Assembly: GCA_014905635.1 (NCBI GenBank)
Contig: CM026547.1
Coordinates: forward strand, 3,782,001 to 3,846,000
Direction: 5' to 3'
Origin: Scenedesmus sp. PABB004
Lineage: Eukaryota
Length of the DNA: 64,000 bases
A model generated the notes under the pieces. The model was not told where the DNA came from. It saw nothing but the letters and a program-made list of their open reading frames with translations, and did no database searches. A program made the position numbers and the translations under genes. This document shows, in pieces, positions 995 to 62,879 of this stretch. Position 1 is the stretch's first letter; each line of letters begins with the position of its first letter.

Positions 995-3932
995 TCACAG
1001 CAGCGTGTGCAGGCGCGAGAGGCGCTCGTCGTCGCGCAGCGCGAGGCCGACGTCCTCCTTGTCCACGTTGAGCGCCACGGCCGCCTTGAGGTGCGCGCCG
1101 TCGCTCAGCAGCAGCCGCACGCCCGCGAGCCGCACCAGGCACTGCTGCAGCACGCCCAGCGGCGGCGGCGTGAGGCCCACCAGGGCGGCGATGCTGTTGG
1201 CCGCGCGCTCAGCCACGCTCTGCGGGCGCGCGCGCGCGTGCGTGCGGCGCGGGCGTGTGAGCGCCGGCTGCGCCGCGCCGGCGGCGCCACGCCCGCCGGC
1301 TGCCCCACCGCCTCTGCCCGTCCCTCCCTCCGCCGGCGGCGCACACCTGGATGATCACGGCGCTGCGCCCCGTCGCGCGCGCCTCGACCACCACCGCCAC
1401 GAGCAGCACCTTCTCCCACGTGCTGCGGCTGCGCAGCAGCTTGTGGTGCAGCGCGCTAAACATCTCCTGCTGCGCCTGCGTCACGTGCGCGCGGCGCACG
1501 AGCGGCGCCTGCCCCTCGGCCCACGCCACGCGCGGCTGCACGCCGCCGCCGTCGCCGCCGCCGGCGCCGCTCTGCGTGACGCTGTGCTCCAGCAGGTGCT
1601 GCTGCCGCGCGATCTCGACCGCGCGGCGCAGCAGCTCCAGCGCGCGCCGGACGTCGCCTGCGAGCGGTGGCGGCGGCAGAGGCGGCGGCGGCGTCAGCCG
1701 GCGGCAGCGCGCCGGGGCGCCGCCGCGGCGGGGCGCGCGCGCGGCGCGCGGCGCGCGGCGCGCGGCGCGCGGCGCCTGGGCGCGCCGCGCCGCGCACCGG
1801 TCTCCGAGGCGACCTTGCGGCAGGCGAGCTGCACCGCCGCCTCCTCGACCGCGCCGGCCGCGGCGCTCGCGTGCAGGCGCGCCCTGACGATCGCGAGCAG
1901 CGCCTGCACGCCGTACGGCGCAAACGGGAGCTTGGCCTGGTCGAGGCGGCTCGCGATGCGCGGCAGCACGCGCGCGTCGAGGTCGTGCGTGTTGCTGATG
2001 CCGATCACGGCCAGCCGGCTGCCGGGCGTGGCGGGCCAGTCAAAGAGCTGGTACAGCACCTGAGCGCGGCGCGCGGGGCGGGGGGCATGAGCGGGCGGCG
2101 CGTGGGCGCGCGGGGCGGAGACGCGTGCGCCCGCCCGCCGGCCGCGCGCGCAGCGCAGCGCGGCGCGCCGGCGCGAGCCCCCGCGGGCGCCGGCGCCGGG
2201 CTGGGGCGCGCGGGCGCGGGCGCGCCCCGCCGCGGGGCCGCGCACCGCCTGGTCGCGCGTGAGCAGCATGTCAATCTCATCCAGCACGATGATGGTGCTG
2301 TACCGCCGCCGCGGCCCGCCGGCCGCGCCGCCGCCGACGCCAAAGTGCTGCTGCAGCGCGTCGCGCGCGCTGCGCGGCGCGGGGCGCGGCGCGGCGTGAG
2401 AGGCATGGGGCGCGGCGGCGCGGCGGCGCGCGGCGTCGCGCGGCGGCGCGCGCCGTGGCAGCGCACCGCGCCGGCCCGAGGTGCTGCCCGCTGAGCTTCT
2501 CCCACAGCCGGCTGAACACGTGCTGCGGCGACGGCAGCTGCAGGCAGTTGATGGCCACGAGCTGGCTCCCCGCCGCGACCGCGTCGCCGGCCTGGGCGTT
2601 GAGCACCTCCATCACCAGCGCCGTCTTGCCCGTGCCGGGCACGCCGCAGATGTAGAGCACGCCGCCGTCTGGCGGCGCGTGCAGCGGCGAGCGGTGAGCG
2701 CGGCGCCCGGGGCGGGCGGGCGGGCGGCGCGCGGGCGGGAGGGCGCCGCCGCTTGGCACGCACCCTCCTTGAGCGCGCGGGCGACAAATCCCTGCAGCCG
2801 CACGCGCTCGTCGTCGCGGCACGGCAGGCTCGCAGGCACGGCCGCGAGGCTCAGCGCCGCGTGCAGGCGGCCAAACGCGTCGGCCTGCTCGCTCCGCGCG
2901 CCGCCAAGGTCGCCCGCGCCGAGGCCGGCAAACTGCGGCGCCAGCGGCGGCGACGGCCAGCGGTCAGCGCCCCGGCGCGGTCCCCCCCCTCGCCCGCGTG
3001 CTCCGCGCCTCACCCGCTCCGCCGCGGCGGCCGCCGCGAGCATCGCCGCCGGCAGCTGGCCGTGGCGCTTGCGCTTGGCGCCGCCGCGCGCGCCGCGCAG
3101 GTGCGGGGCGAGCTCGGGGCGGTACGCGCCGTCGTCGGACTCGCCGCCGCTGCCGCTGCCGCTGGGCTCGCCGTCGGCGTCGCTGTCGCTGTCGCTGGCG
3201 CCGCCGGCGGCGCGGCCGCGGCGCCGCGCGCGCGCGCGCGCGGGCGCGGCGTCGCGGGGTCCCAGGGGTCGGCCCCCGCGGGGCCGGGCCCGCCGCCGCC
3301 GGGCAGCAGCTCGCCGGCGCGGCCGTACTTGCGGCGCTTGAAGCGGCGCCACGTCTCGTCGTACTCGTAGTCACACACAAAGACGTCGTTGCCCTCCTCC
3401 TCGCGCGCGTCGGCAAACGCGGCGGGCGCGTGCACAAACGCGCGGCCCGCGAGCGCGGCGACGGGCTCGACGTACATCTGCGCGCGCAAACGCGCGGCGC
3501 GGTCGGCGCGGCGCGGTCAGCGCGCGCGAGCGTCGTGGCCGCCGCCCCTGCAGCCTCACGCCCCCCCCCCCCCCCTTCCCCCATGTGTGCGCGCCTTGGT
3601 GCCCAGGAAGACCTCGCGCGCGCCGTGCTGCCGCGTGCGCCCCAGGTGCGTCTCCTGGGGAAGCAGGTAGTAACGCACCAGCAGCTGGTCCCTGCGAGCC
3701 CCGGCAGGGCAGCGCCGCGGCGGGGCGGTCGGCGGCGGCCGCGCCGGGCGGCGGCGGCGGCGGCGGCGGCGGCGCGTGCGCGTGCGCGTGCGCGCTCACT
3801 CCTCCTGCCCGTCCGGCGCCCGGCCGCGCTGGCAGCCGAGCACGTGCACCAGCGCGAGCTGGTTGGTGCCGTGGAGCAGCTTCTGCCACTTGGCGATCAG
3901 CCGCGCCGGCGGCGGCGGCACCTGCGCGCGGC

Positions 3933-3973
<41 letters not shown>

Positions 3974-5357
3974 CGCGGTCGAGCGGGCGGGCTCCGCGCG
4001 CACCGCTCCCCGACCCCCCGGGCCTGCCGCGCCGCCGCCGCACCTGGCCGGCGTTGCACTCGGGGCACAGCCAGTCGCCGTCCGGCACGGCCTTGAGCGG
4101 CGGCGCGAGGCAGCGCAGGTGGAAGCCGCGCAGGCAGGTGCTGCACTCGAGGATCTCGTTGCCGCGCCGGCACTTGCTGGAGTGGCAGACCTGGGCGCGC
4201 GCGCGCGCGGCGGCGCAGCGCGGCGCGGCGCCGTGTGGGCGGCTGCGCCCGTGCGCGGCCCGTGCGCCCTCTTCCTCCGCCCTCCCGCCCTCACGCGCGC
4301 GCGTGCGCCCGTGCGCCGCGCCGCCCACCTCGCAGGCCTCGTCCTCGTCCTCCTCGTACTCGTACTCGTCCAGCCGCACGTACGCGTCGTCCCCGGGGCC
4401 AATCACCTCGCCGTCGACGTCCACCACCGCGAGCGCCGCGCCGACGGGCAGCTCCGCGCCGCCGCCGACGCCGCCCGCCCGGCGGCCGGCCCGGGGCACG
4501 GCCGCGGCCGCGGCCGCGCCGCCGCGCGCGCGCAGCTTGGCCGAGGCCGGCGCCCGCGCCGCCGGCGGCGTGGCCAGGCTCATCTTGGCCAGCGGCGTGG
4601 CCAGGCTCGGCGGCGGCTGCGCGGCCTTGGGCTGCGTGCAGCTGCGCGCCAGCCGGCCCGAGGGCGTGGCCGCCGCGCCGCGCGCGCTGCGGGGCGTGGC
4701 GGCCGCTGCCGGCGCCGCGCCGCCGGCGCCGCGCCTGGGCGTCACGGCCGGCGCGGCCACGGCGCCCTGCCGCCTGGGCGTGCGTGCGGGCGCGGCTGCG
4801 GCGGTCGGGGCCTTGCCGCGCGGCCTGCTGCTGGCCCGCGACGAGTGGAAAGGCCGCACGTCGTCGCCGCTCTCGCTGCCGCTCTCGCTGTCGGGGCCGC
4901 CGCCGGCGCCGCCGCCGCCGGCGCTGTCCGCGGCGTTGGCGGTCGCAAAGCTGTCCTCGTCCTCGCTGCCGCCGCCCTCCATGGCGGTGTGCTGCTGCTC
5001 GCTGTCACTGCCGTCGCCAGCCGCTTCGCTGTCGCTGACGACCGCCGGGCGCGCGCTGGCGGCGGGCTGCTGCCGCTGCCGCCGGCCGGCCGGCGGCGCC
5101 TGCTCGTCGTCGCTGTCGCTGGTGTCCGACGCGTGCACCATGACCACGTCGGCCGCCGCCGGCCGCCGCTTCGGCTGCTGGTCGCGGCCCGCGCGGCGCT
5201 GCCGCTGGTCGCTCGCGACCAGCGCGTCGTCGTCGCTGTCGCTCGCGTCCGCGTAGCTGGCCCGGCTCGCGCCCCGGGTGCGGGGCGTTGTCGCGTCAGC
5301 AGCAGCCTTGGCCGCCCGCACGGGCGTGCGGGCGGCTCGCTTGGGCCCTGTGTCCAT
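995..5357 (-). CDS. ORC1: Origin recognition complex subunit 1 (PHD + BAH + AAA+ + winged helix), multi-exon
   Basis: PHD finger (CEVC..ECSTCLRGFHLRCLAPPLKAVPDGDWLCPEC), BAH (LPQETHLGR..REVFL; DVFVCDYEYD), Walker A GVPGTGKT, Walker B LDEIDMLL, IGISNTHDL..LPRIASRL. PHD+BAH is the plant-type ORC1 layout. Confidence 0.93.
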
Positions 5358-6576: not shown

Positions 6577-6615
<39 letters not shown>

Positions 6616-10064: not shown

Positions 10065-10103
<39 letters not shown>

Positions 10104-15165: not shown

Positions 15166-17456
15166 TCATGCTGTGAGCTTGGCGAGCTCGGCCTCGAAGC
15201 TCGCCTTGAGCGTGGTCAGCCGCGCCGCATGCGCGCCGTCGCTCGCCTGGCTGGCCTCGTCGATCCAGCCCTGGATCTGCTTGGCGATGACGCCGCCGCG
15301 CAGCCGGAAGTGCATGCGGATGACGCCGGCAAACTCGGCGGGCGGGTGCTGCAGCTGGTCGACCATCGCCCACTTGACCGTGGCCTCGCGGATGACCTGG
15401 CGACGAGCGGGCGGCGGGCGCGTCGGCGGGCGCGTCGGCGGGCGCGTCGGCGGGCGGCGCGGCACACGCAAAGGGCGCCGTGCGCGCCGCGGGGTCCCGC
15501 GGCGCGGCGTGCGCGGCGCGCCTTGTTGTACTCGCGGCTCGCGGTCATGTCGCCGCGCTGCTCGTAGCCGGGCTCGTTGAAGTAGGGCTGCGGCACCAGG
15601 ATGAGGCTCTGGATGGACACGAGCACCTGGCCCCCGCGCACGCGGCGCGGACGGCGCGTGAGGGGCGGCGGCGGGCGCGCCGCCGCGCAAAGCGCGCTGC
15701 GGGCGCTGAGGGCGCGCGGCCGCGCGGCCGCGCCGCGCACCTGGAACGCGCTGGAGACGTCGGCGTTCCAGCCCTCGCCGCGGTCGCCGCTCCACGTGCC
15801 GAGCAGGCTGAGGCAGACCTTGCCGCAGTTGTACAGGTTGGGGTTGAACCGCACCGACCCGCCGCCCGTCGTCACCAGCAGCACCTGGCGCCGCGCCGGC
15901 GGAGCGTCGGCGCCCGTGCCGCGCGCCGCGCCGCGGCCGCGCGGCGGGGCTGCTGCTGCGTCATGGCGGCGCGCGCACCTTTGGCGGGACCTGCGGGTAG
16001 GTTGAGCCGAACCACCAGTCGAAGATGAAGCAGCCGCCCGAGTAGGGCGTGTCCTCGGGCCCCGTGATGAGCGCCTTCCACAGGAACGTGTTGTCCTCGT
16101 CCACGCGCACAAAGATGCTGCTGCTCTCGTTCACCACGATCAGGCGCTCGATGCCTGGCGGCGCCGGCGGCGGCAGCGGCGCCGGCGGGCTCGGCGGCGG
16201 CGGGCTCGGCGCGCCGCGGGCGCGCGGGCCGCGGGCCGCGGGGCGGCGGCGGCGGCGCCCCGGGCGCAGCGCGGCGCGGCGAGGCGCGGGGCCGGGGGCG
16301 CGCGCACCGGCCATCTCGCTGGTGACCTTCTGCACGCGCGCCTTGAGGCTCATCGTGTCCTTGGCCGCCTCGCCCGCAAACTTGTGGCGCGCCGCGATGC
16401 GCGCGCTGTCGAGCTGCGCACCGCGCGGCGCGGGCGGCGGTCAGCGCGCCGCCGGTCGGCCCTCCGCGCCCGCCGGACCCCCCGGCGCCCCCAGCGCCGC
16501 CCGGCGTCCCCGTGCCACGCACCACGAGCGGCTTCATCGCCGCCTCGTAGCTGGCCGCCGAGGCGCTCGCAGACGGGCCCGTGCCGGCGGCGGGCGCCGC
16601 CGCGGGGGCCGGCTGCGCCGGCGCGGCGTCCGCTGCGGCCGCCGCGGCCGCCGCGGTGCTGCGCGTGGCGCGCCGCGCGCGCCCGCCCTTGGCCGGCGCC
16701 GGCGCCGGCGCCGCCGCTGCGCTGCTCGCCGCCGCCGCCGCGGCCATCGCGGCCGCCGCGGCCGCGTCCTCCGCGGTGGTGAGGTGCTGCAGCTTGCTGA
16801 TCACCAGCAGCAGCTGGTCGGCGATCTCCATGCTGCGCTTCGCCTCCTGCACCAGGGCCTCTGCGCAGAGCGGCGGCGCGGGCGGCAGGCGTCGCGTGGG
16901 CAGCCCGGCCGGCGGCGCGGCAGCGGCGGGCAGCCTGCGCGCCCGCGCGGGCCGCGCACCCGTCTGCTTGTCCACGCGCGGCGCCTGCCCCGCGGCGGAG
17001 CTGCTGCCGGCCTTGGCCGCCGCCTGCTGGCCCTCCAGCGCCTTGGCCATGCGCTGCCGGTACATCGTGGCGCCCTTGACCAGCCCCCGCGCCGCGCCCG
17101 CGACCGACCCCACCTGCTGCTGCTGCGACTGCTGCTGCTGCTGCTGCTGCGACTGCTGCTGCTGCTGCTGCTGCTGCTGGCCCTCCTCGCCGCCGGCGCC
17201 CTCGTGGTGCAGCACGTCGGCGGCGAGCAGCGCCTCGGTCGCGGGCCGGCACAGCGCGAGCGCGACCGCCAGTAGCGGCTGGAAGTACTGGTGCCGCTCC
17301 ACGAGCTCCGTGAAGGCCACCTTGCCGAGCTCGCGCGCGAGCAGCGGCAGCAGCACGCTGCCCTGCACCGCCGCCACGCACTCCTGCTGCACCGGCGTGA
17401 GGCCGACGTCCATGGGCTCGCCACCGTCTGCCGCCGCTGCTGCCGCTGCCGCTGCT

Positions 17457-17487: not shown

Positions 17488-19911
17488 CCTTGGCGGCCTT
17501 GCCGCGGCCGCGCGCGCCGCTGGCGGGCGCCGGTGCGGCGCTGCGCGCCGCGGCCGCCAAGGGCCCGGCGCCGTCGCCCGCAGCGCCGGCCGGCGCGGCG
17601 GGCGCGCCGTCCGCGCAGCCGCCGAGCTCCTCGTTCAGCGCGTCTGCCAGGCCCTGCAGCAGCCCGCACAGCTGCTCGTCCTGCGCCTCCTGCGCCGCCT
17701 GCGCGGCCTTGGCGTCCCACACGGGCCCCGCGCGGCCCGAGCTGCCATAGCCGTAGCCGACGCCGCGTGCCCACACCACGCCCCGCGCCGCGGCAGCGCC
17801 ACCGGCGCCCGGCGGCGGCGCGGCGGCGGCGGCGCCCGCCCCCGCAGCTGCGTATGCGGCGCCGTCAGACGCCACGTCGGTGCGCTGCTTCTTCAGCTGC
17901 TGCGGTTCGGTGGGCGTGTCGGACCTGCGGACGCCGAAGCCGAGCGGGCGGGGCTCAGCACCCGCCCGCCGCTCGCGCGGGCGCGCCGCGCGGCGCCCGC
18001 GGCCGGGGGTGCGCCGCGCACCTGCCGCGCGTCGAGCGGCCCTCGTAGAGTTCCCTGTGCTGCGCGTAGCAGGCGGGCTTCACGTCCGTGAGCGCCTCCA
18101 GCCGCGCGAGCGCCGCCTGCACGGGGCTGAACGCAGAGCCGGCCTGGCTGTTGCGCGGGTGGTTGACGTCCACGCGGCCGTGCTCCTGCGGCGAACACGG
18201 GCGCGGCACGCGGCGGCAGCGGCGGCGGCGGTGTCTGGTGGGGCGCAGGCCCGAAACCGCGCGCTGCAGCCGACGCGCGGCCGCTGCGCGGGGGCTCAGT
18301 GCCGCGCGCGCGGCGCGCGCGCGCACCTCCAGGAACTCCTTGATGCGCTGCAGCAGCTGGTCCATGTTCATCCAGGGGTCCCAGTGCTCCAGGCGCAGCA
18401 GCGGGTGGCTCGCGAGCGCGCCCGCGAGCGGCGGCGCGAGGTGCGGGCGCAGCACCTCGAGGCGCGGCGGGTAGAAGGGGTGCAGCCCGCGCATGAACGT
18501 GAAGCGCAGCTGCACGCTCGACACCGCCCACTTCACAGACACCTCCTGCATGTCCTGCGCGCGGCGCAGCGGCGGGTCGTCACGGCGCGGCAGCGGCGCG
18601 GCGCGGCGCGGCGGCGGGTCGGCGCGGCGCGGCGCGGCGGCGGCGCGGCGCCGGGGCGCGGTGGTGGTGCGGCGGGCGCCCGGCGCACCTTGGCGAGCTG
18701 GCAGTCGGGGCGGAAGCCGCTCTTCCAGAGCTCCACGTTCCAGGTGAACACGTCGTCGCCCGCGCTGTCGGCGCTCACGTCGGCGGGGCCCTGGTACTGG
18801 CGGCGGATGAAGCCGAGCAGTTCGTTGGACAGCATGCTGCACGCCTCCTTGCTGCGGGCGCGGCGGCGGGCGCGGCGGGCGGCGCGTGGGCGGCGGCCGC
18901 GCTGGCCGGCGGGCGGCGGGGCGCGCCGTCCTGCAAGGCGCAGGGCGCTCGCGGCGCGCGCGCCGCACCTGCTGAAGATCTGGCGCTTGCTCGCCTTGCC
19001 CTGCTCCATGGACAGCGCCGTCTGGCTGGCGGCCGCCTTCTCCAGCTCCTCCTCGAAGCGCGCCCAGCGGCCCTGCGGCGGCAGGGCGGCGCGGCGTGAG
19101 CGACGACGCGCGCGCTCGCAGGACGGCGCGCGCGCCCGCGGCAGCGCGCGAGCGCGCCGCCGCCGCCGCCGGGGCGCCGCACCTGTCGCTGGCCGCACTC
19201 CACTAGCAGCTCCTTGTCCTCCTGCTCGTCGTCGCCGCCGTAGTCGTCGTCGCTGCCGCTGCCGCCGTCACTGCTGGCCGGGTAGTCGGAGCCGTCCTCG
19301 GACATGGCCTGCCGCGGCGGCGACGGGCGCGGGGCGGCGCCTGCGTTTGCGCGCCGGGCGCACGCGGCGCGCGGCGCGCGGCGGCGCGGGCGGCGGCGCG
19401 GGCGCACCTCGCCGGAGCCGTCCTCGTCCATGCGCTGCCGCCCGCCGCCGGCCGCCCCCGCCGCGCGCAGCGCATCCTCGTCGACGGGGACGTCGAGGGC
19501 GTCGCAGATCTGCGCGGCGCGGCGCGGGGCCGCCGCCGCTGGGCCGCGGCGCGGCGCGGCCGGCAGCGCGCGCAGCAGCAGCGGCGCGCAGCAGCGGCGC
19601 GCGCCGCGCCGCGCCGCGCCGCGCGCCTTGCTCAGCACGGCCGGCAGCGGCGCGGCGTCCATGAAGCGCTCGCTGAGGCGGGCCAGCTTGGCGCCCAGGG
19701 CCTCGTCCTCGGCCGTCACGAGCGCGCCGCAGGACGGAAAGCTCGAGGGCTCGAGCAGCGTGATGCTCACGCGCTGCGCGCGCTCGGCGCCGTCCACCGC
19801 CGACAGCACCACCGTGTCGCCGTCGAGCTCGAGGCCGCGCAGCTGGCCCGTGGGCGCGATCGAGGCGAGGCTGCAGCGCAGCGCGCCCACCGCGCCCTCC
19901 AGGCCCCCCAT
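15166..19911 (-). CDS. Large ubiquitin-conjugating enzyme: UBE2Q-like module plus C-terminal BIRC6/UBE2O-type UBC, multi-exon
   Basis: [74 protein letters not shown]. Upstream exons give [32 protein letters not shown]. Confidence 0.85.
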
Positions 19912-20182: not shown

Positions 20183-23100
20183 ATGGCGCTGGTGGTGGCC
20201 GCCGGCGATGACCGGTCCGAGCCGGAGGTGATAGCGCGCCTGCCAGCCGCTCCCGGCTCGCGGCTGGCCTTTTCCTGGGGCCTAGGGACGCAAGTGCGCG
20301 TGGCAGCGGTCGCTGGCGGCGCCGCCGCGCCCTGCGAGGACCCCCACGCCGCGGTGGTGGAGTGGTGCGCGCGATCGGCGACCGCGACGGGGCGCGCCGA
20401 CGCCGGCGGCTGCGCGGCGCGCGTGGCGGTTGCCGCCGCCGCTGCTGCTGCTGCCGCCGCTGCGCGCGCTCCGCGATGCGGCCCTGCGCCCGCGGCGCAG
20501 GAGCCCGCCCGTGGGCGAGCAGCGCCGCATCGCGTACGACATCGCGCCGCTCTACCGGTGCCTGCGCCAGACGCTCGCGCTGCTCGGTGCGCCGCTCGCC
20601 CCCGCCCGCCCGCGTGCCCCCGCGGCGCCGGCCCGGTGTGCGCCCTGCCCTGTGTGCCGCCCGCCGACGCGCCGCCGCCGTCGCCGTCGCCGCCGCCGCC
20701 GCCGCCAGGCCCGGGGCGCCAGGTCGAGGCCAAGGAGGCGCTGCGCGAGTACAGCGCCGGCGTGCTGGACATCCTCACCACCAACGCCAGGCGCGTGTGC
20801 TGTTGGGGGCAGCGGCGATGGTGCCGGCGAGCCCTCACCGCACGCGAGCGCCGCGCACCAGGGCCCCTGCCGACCGCGCCCCGCCCGCCCGCCGCGCAGC
20901 GACCCGGCCGCGGGCCCGCCGGCGAGCGAGGAGGCGCTGCAGGTCGCGTACGAGGCGGGGCTGTGGAGCCTGCTGGAGCTCTTCTTCCTCTCCAGCGACA
21001 CGCCCGAGGGCTTCTTCGCAGAGGCACGGCCGGCGCGGCGCCGCCCGCCCGCCCGCCCGCGCGGCGCCGTTGCCCGGCGCCCCCGCCGAACGTTGCTGCC
21101 GCCGCCGCCGCTGCACGCGCGCGCGCAGGCCTTTGCCGCGTGGCTGGGCCAGCACGGCGGCCTGATGAACGCCACGCCCGGCTTCCACGCGCTCGCGGCG
21201 GAGGCGCGCCGCCTGGCGGGCCTGCAGCGTGTGGACAGCGAGGCGAGCTACTGGCCGACGCTGCAGCGCCTCGTGCTCACGGGGCAGCTCGAGGCCGGCA
21301 TCGCGCTGCTCACGGCGCACCCAGCGTATGCGGCGCTGCAGGACCCAGACATGGCCGCCAAGGCGCGCCGCCGCCGCCGCCGCCGCTGCCGCCGCCGCGC
21401 GCGTCGGGCCCCCGCGCGCGCCTCACAGGGGCCGCAGGCCGCCGGGAGCGCGCTGAGCTGCTGCCGCGTCCACGCGCACGCGCGCGCAGGTGGAGGTGCT
21501 GGACGTTGTGTACCAGCTGCTGCGCACGGTGCCGCGCTTCTCGCGCGCCGGCGGCAGCGCCGCGGGGCGCCTCGGCGGCGCGGGCGCGCTCACCGACGAC
21601 GTCGTGGTGTTCTCGGCGGAGCGCGCGGCCTGGCGGCGGCGGTGCGCCGCTGCGCGGCTCGCGGCTCGCGGCCTCGGCCGCCGCCCCCGCGCCGCCGCCC
21701 GTGGCACCGCTGAGCGCCGCCGCCGTGCGGGCATGGCGCAGGGTGGACGAGCTGTGGGAGGGGCGTGAGGCGCTGCTGGCCGACCTGAAGAAGCTGGACC
21801 CCGCCGCGTCGAAAGGTGCGCGGGCCGCGCTGCGTGCGCGGGGGCGGCCCCCGCAGCGAGCAGGTGCAGCGGCCGGTGCCGATCGCTCTCTCTCGCGCGC
21901 GCGCGCCCGCTCGCAGGCCTCGCCGGCGTGCTGTGCCTGCTGTGCGCGGGCTCTGACCACCAGGCGCACGCGGCGGCGGCGTTCAAGCTGATGAGCGCTG
22001 TCGCACACAACTGGGCCGAGCTGCTCGCAGGTGTGCGCGGCGCTCGTTCCGCCCGCGTGCCTCCCTGCGCCAGCCGTCAGCCGTTCCTCCCTGCGCCAGC
22101 TGTCAGCCGTGACGCGCCGCCGCCCGCCATGCACCGCGCCAGGCACGCTCCTGTGGAAGTACCCAACGCTGCAGCCGCAGCTGCACCTGCGCCACCTCGT
22201 CCCCAAGGTGCAGGCCGCGGCGGGCCTGGTCACGCGCGACAGCGACGAGGCGTTCCTGGCCTGCCTGGAGCAGGTGGGTGTTTGTGGTGGCGGCCGTGCC
22301 GCGCGCTGCCAGCGGGCCGGCCGCCGCCGCGCCGCGCCGCTGGCGCCGACGCTCGCGCCGCCGCCGCGCGCCGCGCAGCTGCTGCTCGCGAGCTGCGACC
22401 AGGAGGTGCAGAGCGTCGTGTCGCTCTGCACCAACAGCCCCTACTGCAGCCTCCAGTTTGTCGCGCACGTGTACGACGTGCTGCGCGGCGCGCCGGGGGC
22501 GGAGCGCGTCATCGCGCGCCCGCTGCCCCACCTCGGCGGCGACCAGGCCGAGCTCTTTGCACTGCACTACGTCGAGACTCTCCTCGGCCACGCGCCGACG
22601 TGGCAGCTCGCGGCCGAGTACCTCGCCTGGTGCCCCGTGCACGGCGCGGCGGCGCTCGAGGCGGCGCTGGACCGCAGCCCGGTGCGCGCCGAGCGCCGGC
22701 GCCGGCGCGGCGCGCGCGCGGGCCCGGCGCGCCGCCGCGCGGGCCTCGGCCGCTCACGCGCTCACGCGCCGGCCGGCCGCGCCGCGCCTCGGCGCGCGCA
22801 GTTCCCGCTGCAGGACGAGCGCAGCGCGCTCAAGGCCATCGCGCTGGCGCAGCGCCACGGCCTCACCGCCGCGGCGGCGGGCCTCGCGCGCCGGCTGAGC
22901 GCCGCGGCGGCGGCGAGCGGCCGCCCCGCCGCGGCGCTGCAGTGGGCGATGCGCGGCAACGACCCCGCGCGCTGCGCGGAGCTGGTCGCGCCGCTGGTGG
23001 CCAAGGTGCAGGCGCAGCTGCTGGAGCAGGTGCGCGGCGGCCGGGCGCCCGCGCGCGCCCGCCCGCGTGGGCGGCAGGCGGCAGGCACAGCGCGGCGCGC

Positions 23101-30708: not shown

Positions 30709-30781
30709 CGATGCCACACGCGCAGCCGCCAGCGCTGCTGCCAGCGCCGACGCGGGCTCGCCCGTCTGCGGCACACCCGGC

Positions 30782-44254: not shown

Positions 44255-44292
44255 CAACGCAGCAACCCTCGTCAGCCTCGGCGGCAGCGGCA

Positions 44293-46665: not shown

Positions 46666-48927
46666 TCACCGCCGGCCGCGCCCGCGCTTGCCGCCGCCGC
46701 CGCCGCCGCGGCCCCTGCCGCCGCCGCCGCCCCTGCCGCCGCCGCCGGCCGCGGCGGCTGCGGGCGCGGAGACCTCCTCGTCGTCGCCCATGTGGCCGCG
46801 CTTGTGGCCGCGCTTGGGCCCGCGGCCGTCGTCCGCCTCCTTCATCTGCATCGTCGCGATGCGCTGCGCGGCGCCGACCTGCTCGTGCAGCAGCAGCACC
46901 TCGTCGCGCTCCGCGGGGAAGGCCTCCATCTTGACCCCCGTGAGCGCCTCGATCTTCTGAAACATCTCCACGTCGTACTGCGTCACCAGCGTCACGCTGC
47001 GCCCGCTGCGACCCGCGCGCGCGGTGCGCCCGACCCTGCGCGCGGCGGCGGCGGCGGCGGCGGCTGCGTCGGCGCGCGCGGCGGCGCGGACCGCCGCCGC
47101 CCTGCGCCGCCGCCCCGCCGCCCCGCCGCCCTGCGCCGCCGCGCCGCCGCCCCGCTGCCCAGCGCCGCCGCGCCGCCGCCGCGCCGCCCCGCTGCGCCGC
47201 CGCCGCGCGCGGCGCCGCACCGGTGCACGTAGTCCTTGCTGTTGGCCGGGACGTCGTAGTTGAGCACCACGTCGACGCTGGGGATGTCGAGCCCCCGCGA
47301 CGCGACGTCGGTCGCGACCAGGATGCTGCGCTCGCCGCCCTTGAACTTGTTGAGCGCGCCGAGGCGCTTCGGCTGGCTCATCTGCCCGTGGATGGGCACG
47401 CTGCCAAAGCCCAGGTTGCGCAGCATCAGCGCGACGCGCCGCGTCGCGTCGCACGTGCGCGTGAACACCTGGCGCGCGGCGCGGCGCGGCGCGGCGTGGC
47501 GCGGCGCGGCTCGGCGCGGCGCCGCGACCGCCGCGCGCTGCCGCGGCGGCGCGCGCGCCGGCGCCGCGCGCCCGCCACAGCCGCGCACCATCGCGGTGCT
47601 GCCGCTGAGCTCGTTGAGCACAAACGCGAGGTAGCAGTCCTTGTACTTGGCGGGGACAAAGAGGTACTGCTGGCGCAGCGTGTCAACGGTGCTGTACTTG
47701 GCCGCGACCTCGACCTTGACCGGGCTCACCAGGCACGCGCGCTGCAGCTTGGCGACCTTGGTCGTCATCGTCGCGCTGAACAGCTGCGTGCGCCGCTCGC
47801 GCGGGATGAGCTGCGGCGCGGCGGCGCGGCGGCGGCGAGGGGCGGGCGTTATGCGGCATCCAGGGCGGGGGCGAGGGCACGGCCGCGGCCGCGGCTGCCG
47901 CTGACGCGGCCGCCGCTGACGCCGCCGCCGCTGCTGCCTCGCCGCTGCGCTGCCCTTGCCGCGCGGCAGACCTTGAGTATCTGGTCGATCTCCTGCTCAA
48001 AGTCCATGTCCAGCAGCTTGTCCGCCTCGTCCAGCACGAGGTGCTTCAGCGCCTTCAGCGTGAAGCCCTGCGCGCGCACGCGCCACGCGCCCGGGGTCGG
48101 CCCCCGCGCTGGGCCCCGGCTGCGTCGCCCGCCGCGCGCGCCGCGCCGCCGCCGCCCCGGCGCGCGCCTTGGTGTTTGACAGGTGGTCCACGACGCGGCC
48201 GGGCGTGCCGACGATGACGTGCGGGCGCTTGGCGAGCGCGATCGCCTGGCGCGGCGGCCGCGGCGGAGCGGCGCGGGGGGTTGGCGCCCGCTCGGGGTTG
48301 GCGCCCGCGTGCGCCCGCGTGCCGCCAGCGCTGCCTGCCCTGCCTGCGCTGCCTGCGCCGCGCCGCCGCACCTGGGCCATCATGTCAATGCCACCGACCA
48401 GCACGGCGCTCTTGAGGCCAATGCCCGACCCGAGCGCCTCAAACTGCTCCGCGATCTGGATTGCCAGCTCGCGCGTCGGCGACAGCACGAGCGCGTAGAG
48501 CTCCTGCGGCTTGTCCATGAGGCCCTGCAGGATGGGCAGCGCAAACGCGCCCGTCTTGCCGCTGCCCGTCTGCGCGAGGCCGATGACATCGTGCCCTGCG
48601 ACGACGCCGGCGGCGGCGGCGGTCGCTCGGGGCGCGCGGCGCGCGCGGTGCGGCCGCCAGCCGCACGCGGCGGCCAGCGGCAGCGGCAGCCGGCGGCAGC
48701 AGCGGCGACCGCCGGCCGCCGCCGGCGGCCATGCGCGCGCCGGGGCGCGACGGGAGCGCACCCTGCAGCAGCGGCGGCACGGCCTGCTGCTGGATGACGC
48801 TCGGCTGCTTCCATCCGAGCGCGGCCGCCGCCTCGGCGAGCTGCTCGCAGAGGCCGAGGCCCTCAAAGGCCTTGATGGCCGCCTCCCGCTCCGCGTCGCT
48901 GAGCTGCGTGTCCCGGCCCGCCTTCAT
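46666..48927 (-). CDS. RRP3: DEAD-box RNA helicase RRP3/DDX47 (plant RH10), multi-exon
   Basis: [90 protein letters not shown]. Confidence 0.95.
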
Positions 48928-52111: not shown

Positions 52112-54258
52112 ACCCGCAGCTGCTGTCCTTGGTGCGGTCTGACCTCGGCGCCGACGCGCTGCTGCCCAAGCGCGGCATGAAGGAGCGCTTCGGCCTGCTG
52201 CGGCTCAAGGCCGCCAACGCGGCGCCGGGCAAGGTCGCGCAGGTGCCGCCGATGCACGTGCTGCACACCGACCCGCGCTTCCGCGCTGAGTGGATCGACT
52301 ACTCGGCCCTCGACGCCAAGGCGCGCCGCGCTGCGCACGCTGGGCGCGCTGGGGCCGCGCGCGGCGGCGGCGTGGCGCGGCGGCAGGGGGTCGGGGCGGC
52401 GCCGCGCGGCGCCGCGGGCGCCCGCCGCCGACCGCGCCGCCGACCGCGCCGCCGCCGCCGCGCGCAGGCGACGTGGAACGTGCACCGCGCGCTGCGCGCG
52501 TCGCTGGCCAAGAAGGAGGCGGTCATGGATGACTACCTGCTGGCACAGCTCGCGCCCGTCAGCGCGCACCTCGCGGCCGCGCAGGACGCGCAGCGCGAGG
52601 CCGCCGCGTCGGCGGCGGCGGCGCAGGCGGCCGCGGCGCGCGCGGGGCCCGCGCCCGCGCCGGCGCGGCCGCACGCGGGCAAGGGCCCGCCGCACCCGCG
52701 GCCGCGCTCGCTGCCGGCGGCCGCGCGCGGCGGCGCGAGCGCCGCGCCGGCTGCGGCGGCGGCGGCGGCGGCCAGCGCCGGCTACAGCAGCGGCAGCAGC
52801 AGCTACACGATGCTGGACCTCTACAACGACTACTGGCTGCCCTTTGGCGAGCTGCTCACGTCGATGGAGGCGGAGGGCGTGCGCGTGGACCGGTGAGCCG
52901 CGCCGGCGCGACGCGGGCGCACGGGCGCCCCGCGGGCCGCGCGCGCCGGTGCCGCGCCGCTGACGCGCCCCGCGCTGCGCCGGCGCGCGCTCGCGCCCCG
53001 CAGCGAGCACCTGGCGGCGCAGGAGCAGCGCGCGCTGGTCGACCAGTCGGCGGCGGAGCGGCACTTCCGGGAATGGGCGTGCAGGTGGGGCGGCGTCCGC
53101 CGCGCTCTGTGTGCCGCGCGCCCCGCCGCCGCTGGCGCCGCGCCGGCGCCGCTGGCGTCGCGCGTTCGTCCACGGCCCCGCCGCGCCGCAGGTACGTCCC
53201 CGGCGCGGCGCACATGAACGTCAACAGCCAGGTCCAGATCCGGCAGCTGCTCTTCCCCGACGCGTGCGAGGGGCCGACCAAGGTTTTCAAGGCGCTGAAC
53301 CCTAGCTACGACCCCGCCGCGCGCGGCAAGGACAAGCCGCGCCGCTGGCTCGACTTTGAGCTGCACGGCCTGTGGGGCGAGGGCGCGCCGGGGCGGCTGG
53401 TCGTCGAGACCAAGACCGAGAAGGGCACGCCCGCGGTCAGCGGCGCGGTGCTGTGGAGCCTCGTCGGCAAGCCCGGCGCGGCGGCCAAGGCGCTCGCCGA
53501 GCTGGACGCCGCGCCCGCCGCGCCGGGCGGCGCGCTCGCGGACGACGACGGGCTGGATGCGGTGCACGCGGAGCACGGCGGCCCGGACGAGGACGAGGAG
53601 CTCGGCGGCGCCGGCGGCGCGGCCGAGCCCGGCGGTGTCGGCGGCGGCGCGGAGCCCGAGGTCGTGCTCGGCCCGGGGCCGGGCGTCGATCCGGAGCGCT
53701 GGGCGGCGCTGGAGGCCGAGGCGGCGGCGCTGCGGCTGGGCAAGATGTACGCGGCGATGGGCGGCGGGCGGGAGGGCATCGAGGCCTGCCTCGCGCTCGA
53801 GCAGCTCATCGAGGTGACCCACCGGCGCGCGCCGCGGAGCCGGCGCGGCGCGCCTGGCTGCCCGTCCCCCGGGCCTCACGCGGGGGCTGGGCTGGCGGCC
53901 GGGGCCGCCTTTGCCGCCGCGCGGCGCGCGGCCGAGGTCACGCCGCGCCGCCGCCGCCGCCACACCGCGCCCGCGCCCGCGCCTGTGTGCAGGTGTCGGC
54001 CATCGACAAGCTGCTGTCGGCGTTCATACAGCCCCTGCAGCAGGACAACATCAGCACCACGCACGCGCTGCCCGCCGGGGACGGCGACGGCGCCGCGCCG
54101 CCGCGGCCCATCCACCGCGTGCACTGCAGCCTCAACCTCAACACCGAGACCGGGCGCCTCAGCGCGCGGCGGCCCAACCTGCAGAACCAGCCGGCGCTCG
54201 AGAAGGACCGATACAAGGCGCGGCGCGGCGCAGCGCGGCGCGCTGGGTGGGGCGGCGG

Positions 54259-54295
<37 letters not shown>

Positions 54296-55548
54296 GGGCG
54301 GGGCGGCCCCCGCGACGCACGGCCCGCGCTGAGCGCCGCCCGCCGCGCGCCGCAAACACGCAGGTGCGCAAGGCCTTCACCGCCGAGCCCGGCAAGACGC
54401 TGGTGGTCGCCGACTACGGGCAGCTCGAGCTGCGCCTGCTCGCGCACATGGCCGACTGCAAGTCGATGATCCGCGCGTTTGAGCTCGGCGGCGACTTCCA
54501 CAGCAGGCGCGCGCGCCGCCGCCGCGAACGCCGCGCGCGCCGCGCACGCCACGGCGCCCTGCCCCCGTCGGCACCGCGCCCCGCGCGCCGCGTGCCGCGC
54601 GGCTCACGCGCGTTCCTGCCTGCCTGCCTCCCCCAGGACTGCGCTGGGCATGTATGACTACATCCAGACTGCCATCGACGACGGCGCGTGCCTGCTCGAG
54701 TGGGACGGCGGCCCCGACCACGCGCCGCCGCCCGCGCCGCTGCTCAAGGACAAGTTTGGCAGCGAGCGCCGCAAGGCCAAGGCGCGGCCGCGGCCGCGGC
54801 CTCCCGCGGCCTCCCGCAGCGCGCCGCGTGCGCGCGCCGCGGCCGAGCCGCGCCTCCACCTCACCGCCGCGCTCCGCCGCCTTGCCGCCCCCAGATCCTC
54901 AACTTTTCGATCGCCTACGGCAAGACCGCGCACGGCCTGTCCAAGGACTGGGGCGTCAGCCTCGACGAGGCCGAGGCGACCGTGGCGCGCTGGTACGCGG
55001 ACCGGCCGGAGGTCCGCGAGTGGCAGGCCGCGCAGCGCGGCTACGCGGCGAGGCACGGCTGGGTCAACACCATGCTCGGCCGCCGCCGCGGGCTGCGCCC
55101 CGGCATCACCGCGCCCGACCGCTGGCTGCGTGCGCGCGCCGAGCGCGCGGCGATCAACACGCCCATCCAGGGCAGCGCCGCCGATGTCGCGAGCGCGGCG
55201 ATGCTCTCCATCGCGCGCGACGCCTGGCTCGCGGAGCACGGCTGGAAGCTGCTGCTGCAGGCGCGCGCGCGGCGGCGGCGGCGGCCGCGGCGGCCGCCCG
55301 CGCGCTGCGGCCGGGCGGCCCATTGACGTGCCGCCGCCGCCGCCGCCGTTATGTGTGGCCTGCCGCGCCAGGTGCACGACGAGGTGATGCTCGAGGGGCC
55401 GCGCGAGAGCGCGGAGGAGGCCAAGGCGCGCGTCGTGGCGGCGATGGAAAACCCCTGGGCCAACCTGTTGGGCTTTGTCGGCAAGCCGCTGCGCGTGGAC
55501 CTCGCGGTCGACGCCAACATCGCCGACACCTGGTACGAGGCCAAGTGA
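49459..55548 (+). CDS. POP: Plant/protist organellar DNA polymerase (POP, family A) with 3'-5' exonuclease, multi-exon
   Basis: ACDTEV..SPVGHG..CFSIYAG, KVWHNYGFDRH, GYSLESLS, TETGRLSARRPNLQNQPALEKDRYK, VADYGQLELRLLAH, ERRKAKILNFSIAYG, ERAAINTPIQG, LQVHDEV. The start codon is uncertain. Confidence 0.95.
54260..54293 (+). repeat. (GA)n microsatellite within a POP intron
   Basis: About 17 GA units. Confidence 0.9.
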
Positions 55549-55878: not shown

Positions 55879-55920
55879 GCCGGCACCACGCGCGCGCGCG
55901 CCGGCCAGTCGGCCAGCCAG

Positions 55921-61735: not shown

Positions 61736-61828
61736 GCAGCAGCGGCCGCGGCGGCAGCGCCCGCCGCCGGCGCCGCTGCTGCAGCGGCCGGCGCCTGCGC
61801 GCGGCGGCGCGCGCGCGCAGTCAGCGCC

Positions 61829-62879
61829 ATGTTTGGGGCCGGCGGCGGCGGCGGCGCGGCGCCCGGCGCGCCGCGCGGCGGCGTGGCGGCGCCCACGCTC
61901 ACGCAGCTGGGCGTGGGGCGGCCGCAGGGCAACGCGCTGATCGGGTCGGAGGGCGCCGAGTTTGTGGCGAGCCTGCTGCGCACCAAGGGCCCCAACGCGG
62001 CGGTCTCGGAGCTGCAGGCCAACTACGGCCTGCAGCACCCGCTCTGCCGCCCGCTGCTGTCGGTGCTCGACTGCCTCGGCATCTCTCGCCGCGAGGCGCA
62101 CCTGCACGTGCTCAACCGCGCGCGCCGCCTGCTGCTCGACTGGGTCGCCGCGGTGCGCGCGTCCGACGCGGGCCGCGCGAGCGAGGCCGGCGGCGACGCG
62201 CCGGAGAGCCGCGAGGAGATCGAGCTGCAGGCCAAGCTCGAGCGCCTGCTCAATGCCAGCTTCAAATACATGGGCGTCCCCGAGCTGCAGCAGGCGCGCG
62301 CTGCAGGGCAGGCCCGCGCGGCGGCGGCGGCGGCCGCGGCGGCGGCCGCGGCGGCGGCCGGCGGCGGCCGGGCAGCGGCGGCGCGGCGGCGAGCCAGCGC
62401 CGCGCAGTCGAACCGCGCCGGCGCCGCGCGGCAGGTGCCCATGGCGGTCATGGCGGCCATGGCCCGCGTGCCGGCGCCCTACCTCAAGCAGCTCGCGGAG
62501 GACCGCGAGATCTTCAACGACCTCCCGCCCGCCGTCAAGCAGCAGGCGCGGCGGCGCCGGCGGCGGCTGCTGCGGCAGCGCTCGCACCCTGCCGCGAGCC
62601 CCCGCGCGCGCTGCCCCTGCGCGGCCGCCTGCCCCGCGCCGCCGCCCAGCGCCGCCGCGCGCCGCCGCGCCGCGCCGCCGCAGGTGTATGAGTATGATCG
62701 CAACCTGCTGCAGCAGGACGCCGTGCAGTACATCGCTGCCTACAAGTACGAGCTGGGCACCACGCTCACCGCGCTCAACATGCGCCAGTTTGTGCGCGCG
62801 CGGCGCCGCGTCGCCGACAAGGCGCCGCTGAGCCGCGCGGGCAGCGGCGCGGGCGGCGCCGGCCGGCGAGCCCCGACGC

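What the first reader, a model, noticed from the sequence alone, without database searches (positions are those of the whole stretch)
3478..62683. Very high frequency of GC-AG introns (at least 19, about one in five)
Seen: conserved protein motifs rejoin in frame using GC donors at ORC1 3478-3594(-); UBC 15397-15521, 19510-19626(-); NUP85 20791-20899, 21024-21128, 21363-21489; CLEC16A 24998-25100; lipin 33956-34060, 34313-34451, 35138-35270, 35397-35525(-); RRP3 48068-48167(-); POP 52321-52467, 54218-54363, 54507-54636, 54782-54894, 55261-55371; NELF-B 62294-62434, 62546-62683. Every one has exonic AG before the donor (AG|GCGCG, also GCACG and GCGAG), whereas GT donors tolerate other exon ends. 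My total of roughly 100 introns is an estimate. Known: GC-AG is about 1% in most eukaryotes. Inference: relaxed +2 recognition compensated by exonic U1 pairing, perhaps with altered U1/U6.
Basis: partly seen in the sequence, partly recalled or inferred. Interest (0 to 1): 0.75.

Follow-up and report, generated by a model that had tools for sequence, protein, structure and literature searches.

The report
Many GC-AG introns in GC-rich alga
In this extremely GC-rich stretch of green-algal nuclear DNA roughly one intron in six starts with GC instead of the usual GT, a pattern already known from a few other GC-rich algae and one that mainly matters because standard gene finders would mis-annotate such genes.

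Summary
The window is about 79% GC nuclear DNA. Its closest protein relatives are Tetradesmus and Monoraphidium (Sphaeropleales, Chlorophyceae).

All 19 claimed sites read AG|GC...AG.
- 14 are fixed to the codon by gapless alignment to homologues or solved structures: POP 5, lipin 4, UBC 2, RRP3 1, NUP85 2.
- 3 need an intron (frame shift or stop codons), and the GC site is the only consensus-like donor: ORC1, NUP85 20791, CLEC16A.
- 2 (NELF-B) rest on composition and weak homology.

My gene finder, trained on GT donors only, recovers all 19 donors among about 106 introns. That is 18% (95% CI 11-27%), and at least 13%. No RNA data could be obtained.

GC donors always have exonic AG (19/19, against 38/86 for GT) and an above-median donor context. 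They never occur in phase 1. At five of these intron positions, relatives carry GT.

Best reading: these are ordinary U2-type introns whose +2 T became C under extreme GC pressure. The change is tolerated only in otherwise perfect donors.

High GC-AG shares are already published for Emiliania huxleyi (about 55-60%) and pelagophytes (about 14-17%). This is a new member of a known kind. An altered U1/U6 could not be tested.

One new, unexplained detail: the GC introns lie in runs of consecutive introns (P about 1e-4).

The parts
3478..3594 (-). GC-AG intron in ORC1 (BAH domain), 117 nt, phase 0, AAG|GCGCGC
   Evidence: Read-through has 2 stop codons. The upstream exon matches a BAH domain (5znp residues 61-87). 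The downstream exon matches Arabidopsis ORC1b 192-226 and Pfam BAH 73-118. In-frame GT alternatives would delete matched BAH residues. An intron is required; the junction is not fixed to the residue.
15397..15521 (-). GC-AG intron in BIRC6/UBE2O-type UBC gene, 125 nt, phase 0
   Evidence: Gapless alignment across the junction to the Tetradesmus and MMETSP homologues. A Monoraphidium model runs on with V (= GTN) after the same exon end.
19510..19626 (-). GC-AG intron in the same UBC gene, 117 nt, phase 0
   Evidence: Gapless alignment across the junction to 4 homologues, including a transcript-derived one.
20791..20899 (+). GC-AG intron in NUP85, 109 nt, phase 2, CAG|GCGCGT
   Evidence: The length is not a multiple of 3, so an intron is required. 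The acceptor and phase are shared with fragments from relatives. The donor is not fixed by homology: an in-frame GT 6 nt downstream scores -3.7 in context, against +4.9 for the GC site.
21024..21128 (+). GC-AG intron in NUP85, 105 nt, phase 0, GAG|GCACGG (weakest context, 1.5)
   Evidence: Homologues P0241-P0244 and P0268 are contiguous across the junction. Four unspliced fragments from relatives continue with V (GTN) at this exon end.
21363..21489 (+). GC-AG intron in NUP85, 127 nt, phase 0
   Evidence: Ungapped across the junction against P0268. Five fragments from relatives end their homology at the same residue and continue with V.
24998..25100 (+). GC-AG intron in CLEC16A (FPL domain), 103 nt, phase 0
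   Evidence: The length is not a multiple of 3. The flanking exons match Pfam FPL up to position 40 and from position 47. An in-frame GT 12 nt upstream has context -4.3, against +5.1 for the GC site. The junction is not fixed to the residue.
33956..34060 (-). GC-AG intron in lipin (LNS2 domain), 105 nt, phase 2
   Evidence: Pfam LNS2 positions 183|186 around a split codon. Gapless against 8 homologues. Read-through has 2 stops.
34313..34451 (-). GC-AG intron in lipin, 139 nt, phase 2, CAG|GCGAGC
   Evidence: Pfam LNS2 positions 99|101 around a split codon. Gapless against homologues.
35138..35270 (-). GC-AG intron in lipin, 133 nt, phase 0
   Evidence: Gapless against the Tetradesmus homologue. 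The gene finder chose it even with a GC-donor prior of 1e-6.
35397..35525 (-). GC-AG intron in lipin (Lipin_mid), 129 nt, phase 0
   Evidence: Gapless against Tetradesmus, a transcript-derived homologue and others. Pfam Lipin_mid 1-56 ends at the exon end.
48068..48167 (-). GC-AG intron in RRP3/DDX47 helicase, 100 nt, phase 0
   Evidence: The upstream exon ends at DDX47 (3ber_A) residue 180 and the downstream exon starts at 181.
52321..52467 (+). GC-AG intron in organellar family-A DNA polymerase (POP), 147 nt, phase 0
   Evidence: Gapless against 17 of 18 homologues in a conserved motif.
54218..54363 (+). GC-AG intron in POP, 146 nt, phase 0
   Evidence: Gapless against 18 homologues. Pfam DNA_pol_A about 140|141. 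L078 has an acceptor at the same place.
54507..54636 (+). GC-AG intron in POP, 130 nt, phase 2
   Evidence: Gapless against 18 homologues. The orthologous intron has the same phase and a GT donor in metagenome loci L078 and L063.
54782..54894 (+). GC-AG intron in POP, 113 nt, phase 0; no in-frame GT within reach
   Evidence: Gapless against 18 homologues. The orthologous intron has a GT donor in L078. Chosen even with a GC prior of 1e-6. There are no in-frame GT alternatives.
55261..55371 (+). GC-AG intron in POP, 111 nt, phase 0
   Evidence: Gapless against 18 homologues. Pfam DNA_pol_A 332|333. Read-through has a stop. L078's nearest intron lies 12 nt further downstream.
62294..62434 (+). 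Probable GC-AG intron in NELF-B, 141 nt (or 114 nt if the acceptor is 62407), phase 0
   Evidence: Weak. It is in frame and stop-free. In 62294-62407, 4 of 7 A/T bases fall at would-be third codon positions, and the read-through coding score is -6.2 nats. The gene finder prefers acceptor 62407. No homologue fixes the junction.
62546..62683 (+). Probable GC-AG intron in NELF-B, 138 nt, phase 0
   Evidence: Weak. It is in frame and stop-free. The upstream exon aligns to human NELF-B up to the exon end. The read-through coding score is -18.5 nats, but the A/T split 6/5/1 looks coding-like. The downstream exon alone finds no NELF-B match.

Best explanation
These are ordinary U2-type spliceosomal introns with the minor donor form GC-AG. 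In this window they make up about 13-18% of all introns.

The most likely history is as follows. The ancestors had GT donors. In a lineage whose nuclear DNA has been driven to about 79% GC (by mutation bias and/or GC-biased gene conversion), the T at intron position +2 was replaced by C.

The change survives only where every other donor position already matches the local consensus: exonic AG, then G at +3 and G at +5. The remaining U1/U6 pairing then still defines the site.

Third codon positions are about 95% G/C, so an exonic A at -2 is almost impossible in phase 1. GC donors are therefore confined to phase 0 (after AAG, CAG or GAG codons) and phase 2 (AG|N).

Shown: the introns and their boundaries (14 exactly), the context rule, the phase bias, and GT in relatives.
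Inferred: the direction and cause of the change, and that the introns are spliced efficiently.
For: Sequence and boundaries.

Non-coding nature: A/T 84/95/89 by would-be codon position, against a coding split of 31.5/62.2/6.3%.

Independent gene finder. Its donor matrix was learnt from GT donors only.
- It recovers all 19 donors.
- It keeps two of them even at a GC prior of 1e-6.
- The total model score is highest with GC as the second donor type: 6962, against 6861 (CG), 6793 (CC), 6767 (GA), 6747 (GG) and 6705 (GT only).

Context rule:
- Exonic AG 19/19 against 38/86, p = 3e-6.
- Donor hexamers: GCGCGC 13, GCGCGG 3, GCGCGT 1, GCGAGC 1, GCACGG 1. These mirror the GT consensus GTGCGC/GTGCGG.
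- Context score 4.4-5.7 in 18 of 19, against a GT median of 3.19.

Phase: 15 in phase 0, 0 in phase 1, 4 in phase 2. GT introns are 42/26/18 (chi-square p = 0.015). A/T at third codon positions is 4.5%.

Ancestral GT. At five of these intron positions relatives show GT or a V (GTN) read-through:
- NUP85 21024: 4 fragments.
- NUP85 21363: 5 fragments.
- UBC 15397: 1.
- POP 54507: L078 and L063.
- POP 54782: L078.
No relative showed GC at any of them.

Selection still favours T. 18 of 52 perfect-context donors are GC, while intron interiors have C/(C+T) = 0.888.

Literature. High GC-AG shares are ascribed to high GC content in E. huxleyi (PMC4028052, passages read; PMC7779022, passage) and in pelagophytes (bioRxiv 10.1101/2024.10.30.620910, passage). 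Genomic GC correlates with splice-site GC (PMC7072748, passage).
Against: - No transcript evidence. No RNA run could be listed, so splicing at these exact sites is inferred from protein homology and composition only.
- Five of the 19 are not fixed to the residue. For NUP85 20791 and CLEC16A an in-frame GT with a poor context lies 6 and 12 nt away. The two NELF-B cases could still be low-complexity coding sequence.
- The rule that every GC donor has exonic AG may be partly ascertainment. However, no conserved junction in POP, lipin, UBC, RRP3 or NUP85 was left unexplained.
- GC content alone does not set the rate. E. huxleyi has about 55-60% GC donors at 65% genomic GC, while this window has 18% at 79%. 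Lineage-specific tolerance must also matter.
- Intron-interior GC is the same for GC and GT introns (0.885 against 0.879). Yet GC introns cluster in runs (P about 1e-4). Simple uniform mutation pressure does not predict that.
- One 64-kb window may not represent the genome.
Confidence: 0.72

Rival explanations
1. The spliceosome of this lineage has changed, for example at the U1 5' end, the U6 ACAGAGA box or Prp8. C at +2 would then be recognised almost as well as T.
For: The share (13-18%) is more than ten times the plant mean of 1.2% (PMC6310983, abstract and passages). GC content alone does not predict the share across lineages: E. huxleyi has about 55-60% at 65% GC (PMC4028052) against 18% here at 79%. 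So lineage-specific tolerance exists somewhere.
Against: GC donors occur only in otherwise perfect contexts (19/19 exonic AG). That is what an unchanged spliceosome would require. Among perfect-context donors T is still twice as common as C (34 against 18), against a neutral expectation of 89% C. No snRNA gene is in the window and no genome is held, so nothing points positively to a change.
Confidence: 0.12
2. A sizeable part of the 19 are annotation artefacts. They would be in-frame low-complexity coding inserts or introns that really use a nearby GT, so the true share would be only a few percent.
For: At 79% GC all six frames are open for hundreds of codons, so 'rejoins in frame' is weak evidence by itself. 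My gene finder over-calls GC donors: 8 extra calls, one shown wrong by homology. With decoy donor types it still decoy 'introns'. The two NELF-B cases are in frame and stop-free. The interval of one (62546-62683) has a coding-like A/T split (6/5/1).
Against: 14 junctions are fixed to the residue in invariant motifs by independent homologues or solved structures. 10 of 19 lengths are not multiples of 3, and 3 more have stops. The pooled A/T periodicity is flat. Even counting only the 14, the share is 13%.
Confidence: 0.06
3. The introns are real, but the window is unrepresentative. The genome-wide GC-AG share would be much lower (a few percent), and the runs of GC introns in a few genes would inflate the local figure.
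For: GC introns are clumped. There are 9 adjacent GC-GC pairs against 2.75 expected, P about 1e-4. 12 of 19 lie in three genes (POP, lipin, NUP85). Six gene models with 4-8 introns have none. Only 64 kb were seen.
Against: 8 of the 12 gene models with at least 3 introns carry at least one GC intron, spread over the whole window. The window's composition is uniform at 73-82% GC.
Confidence: 0.25

Closest known systems
GC-AG majority introns of the haptophyte Emiliania huxleyi
   Same: A GC-rich algal nuclear genome in which GC replaces GT at the donor while the AG acceptor stays canonical. The authors ascribe it to high GC content. Ab initio gene predictors are misled (PMC4028052, passages: 56% of 241 curated junctions, 13 checked by RT-PCR; PMC7779022, passage: about 55%).
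   Different: A different supergroup. The share is much higher (55-60%) at a lower genomic GC (65%). Here it is 13-18% at about 79% GC, in a chlorophycean green alga, with a strict exonic-AG rule. There is no RNA verification here.
GC-AG introns of pelagophytes (Aureococcus anophagefferens 14-17%, Pelagomonas calceolata about 14%)
   Same: A nearly identical share. The authors attribute it to high genome GC content. A lower-GC relative (Aureoumbra) has 0.32% (bioRxiv 10.1101/2024.10.30.620910, one passage read). This parallels the GT donors seen here in lower-GC relatives.
   Different: These are stramenopiles with few introns per gene. Part of their GC donors belong to introner elements (bioRxiv 10.1101/2021.10.25.465678, passage). 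The introns here sit at old, conserved positions in housekeeping genes and share no repeat.
Ordinary U2-type GC-AG introns of plants and animals (about 1%)
   Same: The same dinucleotides and the same dependence on a stronger match at the other donor positions (recalled: Burset et al. 2000; Thanaraj and Clark 2001). GT and GC interchange at homologous positions (PMC7072748, passage).
   Different: The frequency is ten to fifteen times higher than the mean of 1.2% over 121 plant genomes (PMC6310983, abstract and passages).
U12-type (minor spliceosome) introns
   Same: They are also called non-canonical and may have unusual terminal dinucleotides.
   Different: U12 donors carry a long invariant motif after the first two bases (recalled: the ATCC core). 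None of the 19 donors has it: all read GCGCG, GCGAG or GCACG. These are not U12-type.

Membership tests
U2-type GC-AG spliceosomal intron | The intron begins with GC and ends with AG | tested here: met
   19 of 19 on the stated strand. All 19 end in CAG.
U2-type GC-AG spliceosomal intron | The segment is absent from the mature message, so the flanking exons join in frame to give the conserved protein | tested here: met
   Tested at protein level only. 14 of 19 junctions are gapless against homologues or solved structures. 3 more need an intron because of a frame shift or stops. 2 are inconclusive. No RNA data.
U2-type GC-AG spliceosomal intron | The remaining donor positions follow the organism's GT-donor consensus, usually more strictly | tested here: met
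   The matrix was learnt on GT donors only. The context score is 4.4-5.7 in 18 of 19, against a GT median of 3.19. Exonic AG is 19/19 against 38/86.
U12-type intron | A long conserved donor motif directly after the first dinucleotide, and a matching branch-site motif | tested here: not met
   The donor hexamers are GCGCGC (13), GCGCGG (3), GCGCGT, GCGAGC and GCACGG. The U12 motif itself is recalled and comes from no call. The branch site was not examined.
GC-content-linked GC-AG enrichment (as in E. huxleyi and pelagophytes) | A very GC-rich nuclear genome | tested here: met
   73-82% GC in every 4-kb bin of the window. Intron interiors are 88% GC. The whole genome was not available.
GC-content-linked GC-AG enrichment (as in E. 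huxleyi and pelagophytes) | A GC-AG share of the order of 10% or more of all introns, with canonical AG acceptors | tested here: met
   19 of 105-106 introns (18%, CI 11-27%), and at least 14 of 106 (13%). Acceptors are AG in all. This holds for this window only.
GC-content-linked GC-AG enrichment (as in E. huxleyi and pelagophytes) | Lower-GC relatives carry GT at the same positions | tested here: met
   At five intron positions there are 13 observations in relatives, all GT or V (GTN). No data for the other 14 positions.
GC-content-linked GC-AG enrichment (as in E. huxleyi and pelagophytes) | Junctions verified on RNA | not testable with these tools
   No RNA holder was listed, so no reads could be laid.

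The most novel reading that the evidence does not exclude
GC-donor introns are not scattered singly but converted in blocks. Runs of 2-4 consecutive introns in one gene are all GC: NUP85 has 3, lipin its last 4, POP its last 4, NELF-B its first 2. This would point to a local process. Candidates are short recombination or gene-conversion hot spots that drive T to C at several neighbouring donors at once, or a spliceosome or exon-definition regime in this lineage that makes GC donors mutually tolerable when adjacent. It would make the alga a natural system for watching a shift of the canonical donor from GT towards GC.
Probability: 0.12. Interest if true: 0.6.

Novelty: new member of a known kind. 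Interest (0 to 1): 0.38.

Why it matters
Practically, a gene finder that allows only GT donors, or penalises GC heavily, would mis-call about one intron in six. It would therefore damage about half of the multi-intron genes here: 8 of the 12 gene models with three or more introns carry a GC intron. In my GT-only run the affected exons were truncated by up to 83 codons, or read through. The same problem is on record for E. huxleyi.

Biologically, this adds a green-algal (Sphaeropleales-related) lineage to the few known cases where extreme GC pressure erodes the most conserved base pair of the donor. It comes with a clean rule set:
- exonic AG is obligatory;
- phase 1 is excluded because of codon bias;
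- T is still favoured two to one in perfect contexts.

It also shows, by comparison with E. huxleyi, that GC content alone does not set the share. It is not a new mechanism.

Tried and rejected
- RNA evidence: no RNA holder was listed for window 19000-28999.
- Whole genome: none is held, so there is no genome-wide rate and no U1/U6 inspection.
- Rfam scan of the window: 0 matches at gathering scores.
- Untrained gene finder: it gave meaningless introns (57 GC, 28 GT) and was discarded.
- Decoy donor types: 11-25 decoy introns are still called, so raw counts of non-GT calls are not a clean control. Only the total model scores were used.
- Eight further GC calls of my gene finder are not accepted: 5257-5340(-), 6885-6971(+), 21621-21741(+), 23106-23446(+), 37008-37097(-), 56188-56255(-), 57647-58013(-), 62866-62984(+).
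  - 21621 is contradicted by homologue P0268, which supports the GT donor at 21642.
  - Two imply exons of 0-1 codons.
  - The rest lie in unconserved low-complexity sequence.
- RRP3: two suspected missing micro-exons turned out to be wrongly chosen acceptors of two GT introns.
- NELF-B: the last 36 residues of exon 1 and exon 3 alone found no NELF-B structure. No cap was left for a homologue search.
- Metagenome loci for POP: 74 of 80 gave one unbroken match (intronless relatives). Of the 6 split ones, the DNA of 5 was read; L078 and L063 showed introns at positions shared with the window.
- Read-through coding as an explanation: rejected for the set as a whole, still open for the two NELF-B cases.
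- U12-type introns: rejected.
- Earlier notes of this scan: nothing on this genome or look-alikes. Three Ostreococcus notes are unrelated.
- Literature: one search with min_terms=2 returned only irrelevant papers.
- Searches for a report of high GC-AG shares in green algae found none: 'GC-AG introns'+'green alga'+'GC content'; 'GC-AG'+'non-canonical splice'+'algae'; 'GC-AG'+'Chlamydomonas'; 'GC donor'+'green alga'; 'GC-AG'+'Chlorophyt'. The library lacks most subscription journals. The per-species supplements of PMC6310983 and PMC7072748 were not opened; they may list algal values.

Full report
WHAT THE WINDOW IS

Every 4-kb bin has 73-82% G+C. All six frames are open for hundreds of codons. 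So 'exons rejoin in frame' is weak evidence by itself, and I looked for independent tests. No whole genome is held and no RNA run could be listed. Everything below therefore rests on sequence statistics and protein homology.

The closest relatives of three proteins are Tetradesmus obliquus and Monoraphidium minutum, at 64-87% identity in single exons. The DNA therefore comes from a chlorophycean green alga near the Sphaeropleales. 'POP' is the organellar family-A DNA polymerase: Pfam DNA_pol_A, and homologues that also carry the 3'-5' exonuclease domain.

THE OBSERVATION

All 19 intervals read exon-AG|GC...CAG on the stated strand.

I wrote a semi-Markov gene finder using codon usage, a shadow strand, and donor, acceptor and length terms.

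- Trained with GT donors only, it learnt the donor (C/G)(A/C)G|GTGCG(C/G), the acceptor GCGCAG|G and a median intron length of about 120 nt. Even with a GC-donor prior of 1e-6 it insisted on two GC donors, at 54782 and 35270.
- At the other claimed sites the GT-only model had two ways out. It used poor GT sites that cut up to 83 codons out of conserved domains, or it read through.
- With GC allowed, but the donor matrix still learnt from GT donors alone, it called 86 GT and 27 GC introns. It recovered all 19 claimed donors, 18 with the same acceptor.
- The total model score is highest with GC as the second donor type: 6962. The alternatives score 6861 (CG), 6793 (CC), 6767 (GA), 6747 (GG) and 6705 (GT only).
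- The decoy runs also show that the finder is permissive: 11-25 decoy introns were still called. So I do not accept its 8 extra GC calls. One of them (21621) is contradicted by a homologue that supports the GT donor at 21642.

ARE THEY INTRONS RATHER THAN LOW-COMPLEXITY CODING INSERTS?

- Coding sequence here puts 31.5, 62.2 and 6.3% of its A/T bases at codon positions 1, 2 and 3.
- Inside the 19 intervals the split is 84/95/89. In the 86 GT introns it is 474/476/470.
- Ten of the 19 lengths are not multiples of three, and three of the nine in-frame ones contain stops.

ARE THE BOUNDARIES RIGHT?

Fourteen junctions are fixed to the codon:

- POP, 5 junctions: each falls inside a motif that is nearly invariant in 18 homologues, and the alignment is gapless.
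- Lipin, 4 junctions: gapless. Pfam LNS2 positions run 99|101 and 183|186 around split codons.
- UBC, 2 junctions: gapless against Tetradesmus and transcript-derived homologues.
- RRP3: the exons end and start at DDX47 residues 180 and 181.
- NUP85 21024 and 21363: ungapped at the junction against a 966-residue homologue and several fragments.

Sliding such an intron by one to three bases gives the same message only with boundaries such as CG-GG. GC-AG is therefore the only reading that keeps the AG acceptor.

Three more need an intron, and the GC site is the only consensus-like donor:

- ORC1 3478: stops in read-through, and BAH-domain matches on both sides.
- NUP85 20791: 109 nt. An in-frame GT 6 nt downstream scores -3.7 in context, against +4.9 for the GC site.
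- CLEC16A 24998: 103 nt. Pfam FPL matches up to position 40 and from position 47. A GT 12 nt upstream scores -4.3, against +5.1.

The two NELF-B cases are in frame and stop-free, and only weakly supported:

- Human NELF-B aligns up to the end of the exon before 62546.
- Composition argues against coding for 62294-62407, where 4 of 7 A/T bases are at third positions.
- It is equivocal for 62546-62683 (A/T 6/5/1, but a codon-usage score of -18.5 nats).
- The acceptor of the first may be 62407 or 62434.

HOW MANY

- 19 of 105 introns is 18.1% (95% CI 11.3-26.8%).
- The chance of 19 or more at a 2% rate is 4e-13.
- Counting only the 14 exact ones out of 106 gives 13%.

RULES THE GC DONORS OBEY

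- Exonic AG: 19/19, against 38/86 for GT donors (p = 3e-6).
- Hexamers: GCGCGC 13, GCGCGG 3, GCGCGT 1, GCGAGC 1, GCACGG 1. These mirror the GT consensus.
- Context score without +1/+2: 4.4-5.7 in 18 of 19, against a GT median of 3.19.
- Acceptors (CAG in all) and lengths do not differ from GT introns.
- Phase: 15 in phase 0, none in phase 1, 4 in phase 2. GT introns are 42/26/18 (p = 0.015).

The phase bias follows from the AG rule. In phase 1 the A at -2 would be a third codon position, where A/T is 4.5%.

The AG rule could be partly ascertainment. However, in the five genes checked against homologues no conserved junction was left unexplained.

WHERE THEY COME FROM

At five of these intron positions, relatives carry GT.

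- Unspliced ORF fragments of relatives stop matching exactly at the exon end and go on with V (GTN). This holds for NUP85 21024 (4 fragments) and 21363 (5 fragments).
- A Monoraphidium model does the same at UBC 15397.
- In metagenome locus L078 (55% GC, 84% identical in one exon) the introns matching 54507 and 54782 begin with GT. In L063 the one matching 54507 also does.
- No relative showed GC.
- The intron at 55261 lies 12 nt upstream of L078's nearest intron.
- 74 of the 80 loci fetched are intronless relatives and say nothing.

Among donors with the full context AG|GYGNG, 34 are GT and 18 are GC. Intron interiors have C/(C+T) = 0.888. So T at +2 is still selected, only more weakly where the rest of the donor is perfect.

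INTERPRETATION

The simplest account is GC-biased substitution pressure acting on ordinary U2-type donors. The remaining U1/U6 pairing compensates.

A changed U1 or U6 is neither needed nor testable here: Rfam finds no snRNA in the window.

COMPARISON WITH WHAT IS KNOWN

- The plant mean is 1.2% GC-AG over 121 genomes (PMC6310983, abstract and passages).
- E. huxleyi has 56% GC donors in 241 curated junctions, with 13 checked by RT-PCR. The authors blame the 65% GC genome (PMC4028052, passages). PhycoCosm quotes about 55% (PMC7779022, passage).
- Aureococcus has 14-17%, Pelagomonas about 14%, and the lower-GC Aureoumbra 0.32% (bioRxiv 10.1101/2024.10.30.620910, one passage).
- Genomic GC correlates with splice-site GC (PMC7072748, passage).

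So the phenomenon and its explanation are in print for other algal lineages. My five searches for green algae found nothing. Per-species supplements were not opened, and most subscription journals are not in the library.

The finding is a new member of a known kind.

An 18% share at 79% GC, against 55-60% at 65% GC in E. huxleyi, shows that GC content is not the only factor.

UNEXPLAINED

The GC introns lie in runs of consecutive introns: NUP85 has 3, lipin its last 4, POP its last 4, NELF-B its first 2. There are 9 adjacent GC-GC pairs against 2.75 expected in 20,000 shuffles (P about 1e-4). The interior GC of the introns does not differ (0.885 against 0.879).

LIMITS

- There is no RNA evidence.
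- Only one 64-kb window was seen.
- Five junctions are not fixed to the residue.
- GT intron counts come from my own gene finder. It mis-set at least two acceptors and one donor.

Noticed in passing
window 20791-21489, 33956-35525, 54218-55371, 62294-62683: GC-AG introns occur in runs of 2-4 consecutive introns within a gene. There are 9 adjacent GC-GC pairs against 2.75 expected under label shuffling (P about 1e-4). Intron-interior GC does not differ from GT introns.
   Followed up: partly
window about 28981-33054 and about 42708-46073: An inverted segmental duplication, with arms 95-99% identical in blocks of up to 1214 nt. It flanks the lipin gene and a coiled-coil gene. Each arm carries a 226-residue secreted-looking repeat protein with one identical GT intron (30076-30211 and 42973-43108), and a gene of about 180-193 residues of unknown function. 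A third relative of that gene lies at 139-600.
   Followed up: partly
window 55261-55371 against L078:1520-1740: The last POP intron sits 12 nt (4 codons) upstream of the nearest intron of the closest metagenome relative. This is either intron sliding or independent gain and loss at neighbouring sites.
   Followed up: no
window 61829-64000: A NELF-B (COBRA1) homologue is present in a chlorophycean alga. Pfam COBRA1 gives E = 0.0013 on one exon, and human NELF-B matches at E = 0.006. The gene runs off the window end.
   Followed up: no
window 46997-47220 and 47784-47971 (- strand): In RRP3, my gene finder chose acceptors too far downstream. Upstream AG sites restore two conserved helicase segments, so these two GT introns are about 160 and 185 nt rather than 188 and 224 nt.
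   Followed up: yes
P0241-P0261, P0288/P0289/P0293: Many database 'proteins' of related algae are unspliced ORF calls or mis-annotated models that read into introns. They turned out to be usable as evidence for intron position and for the first intron codon (V = GTN).
   Followed up: partly
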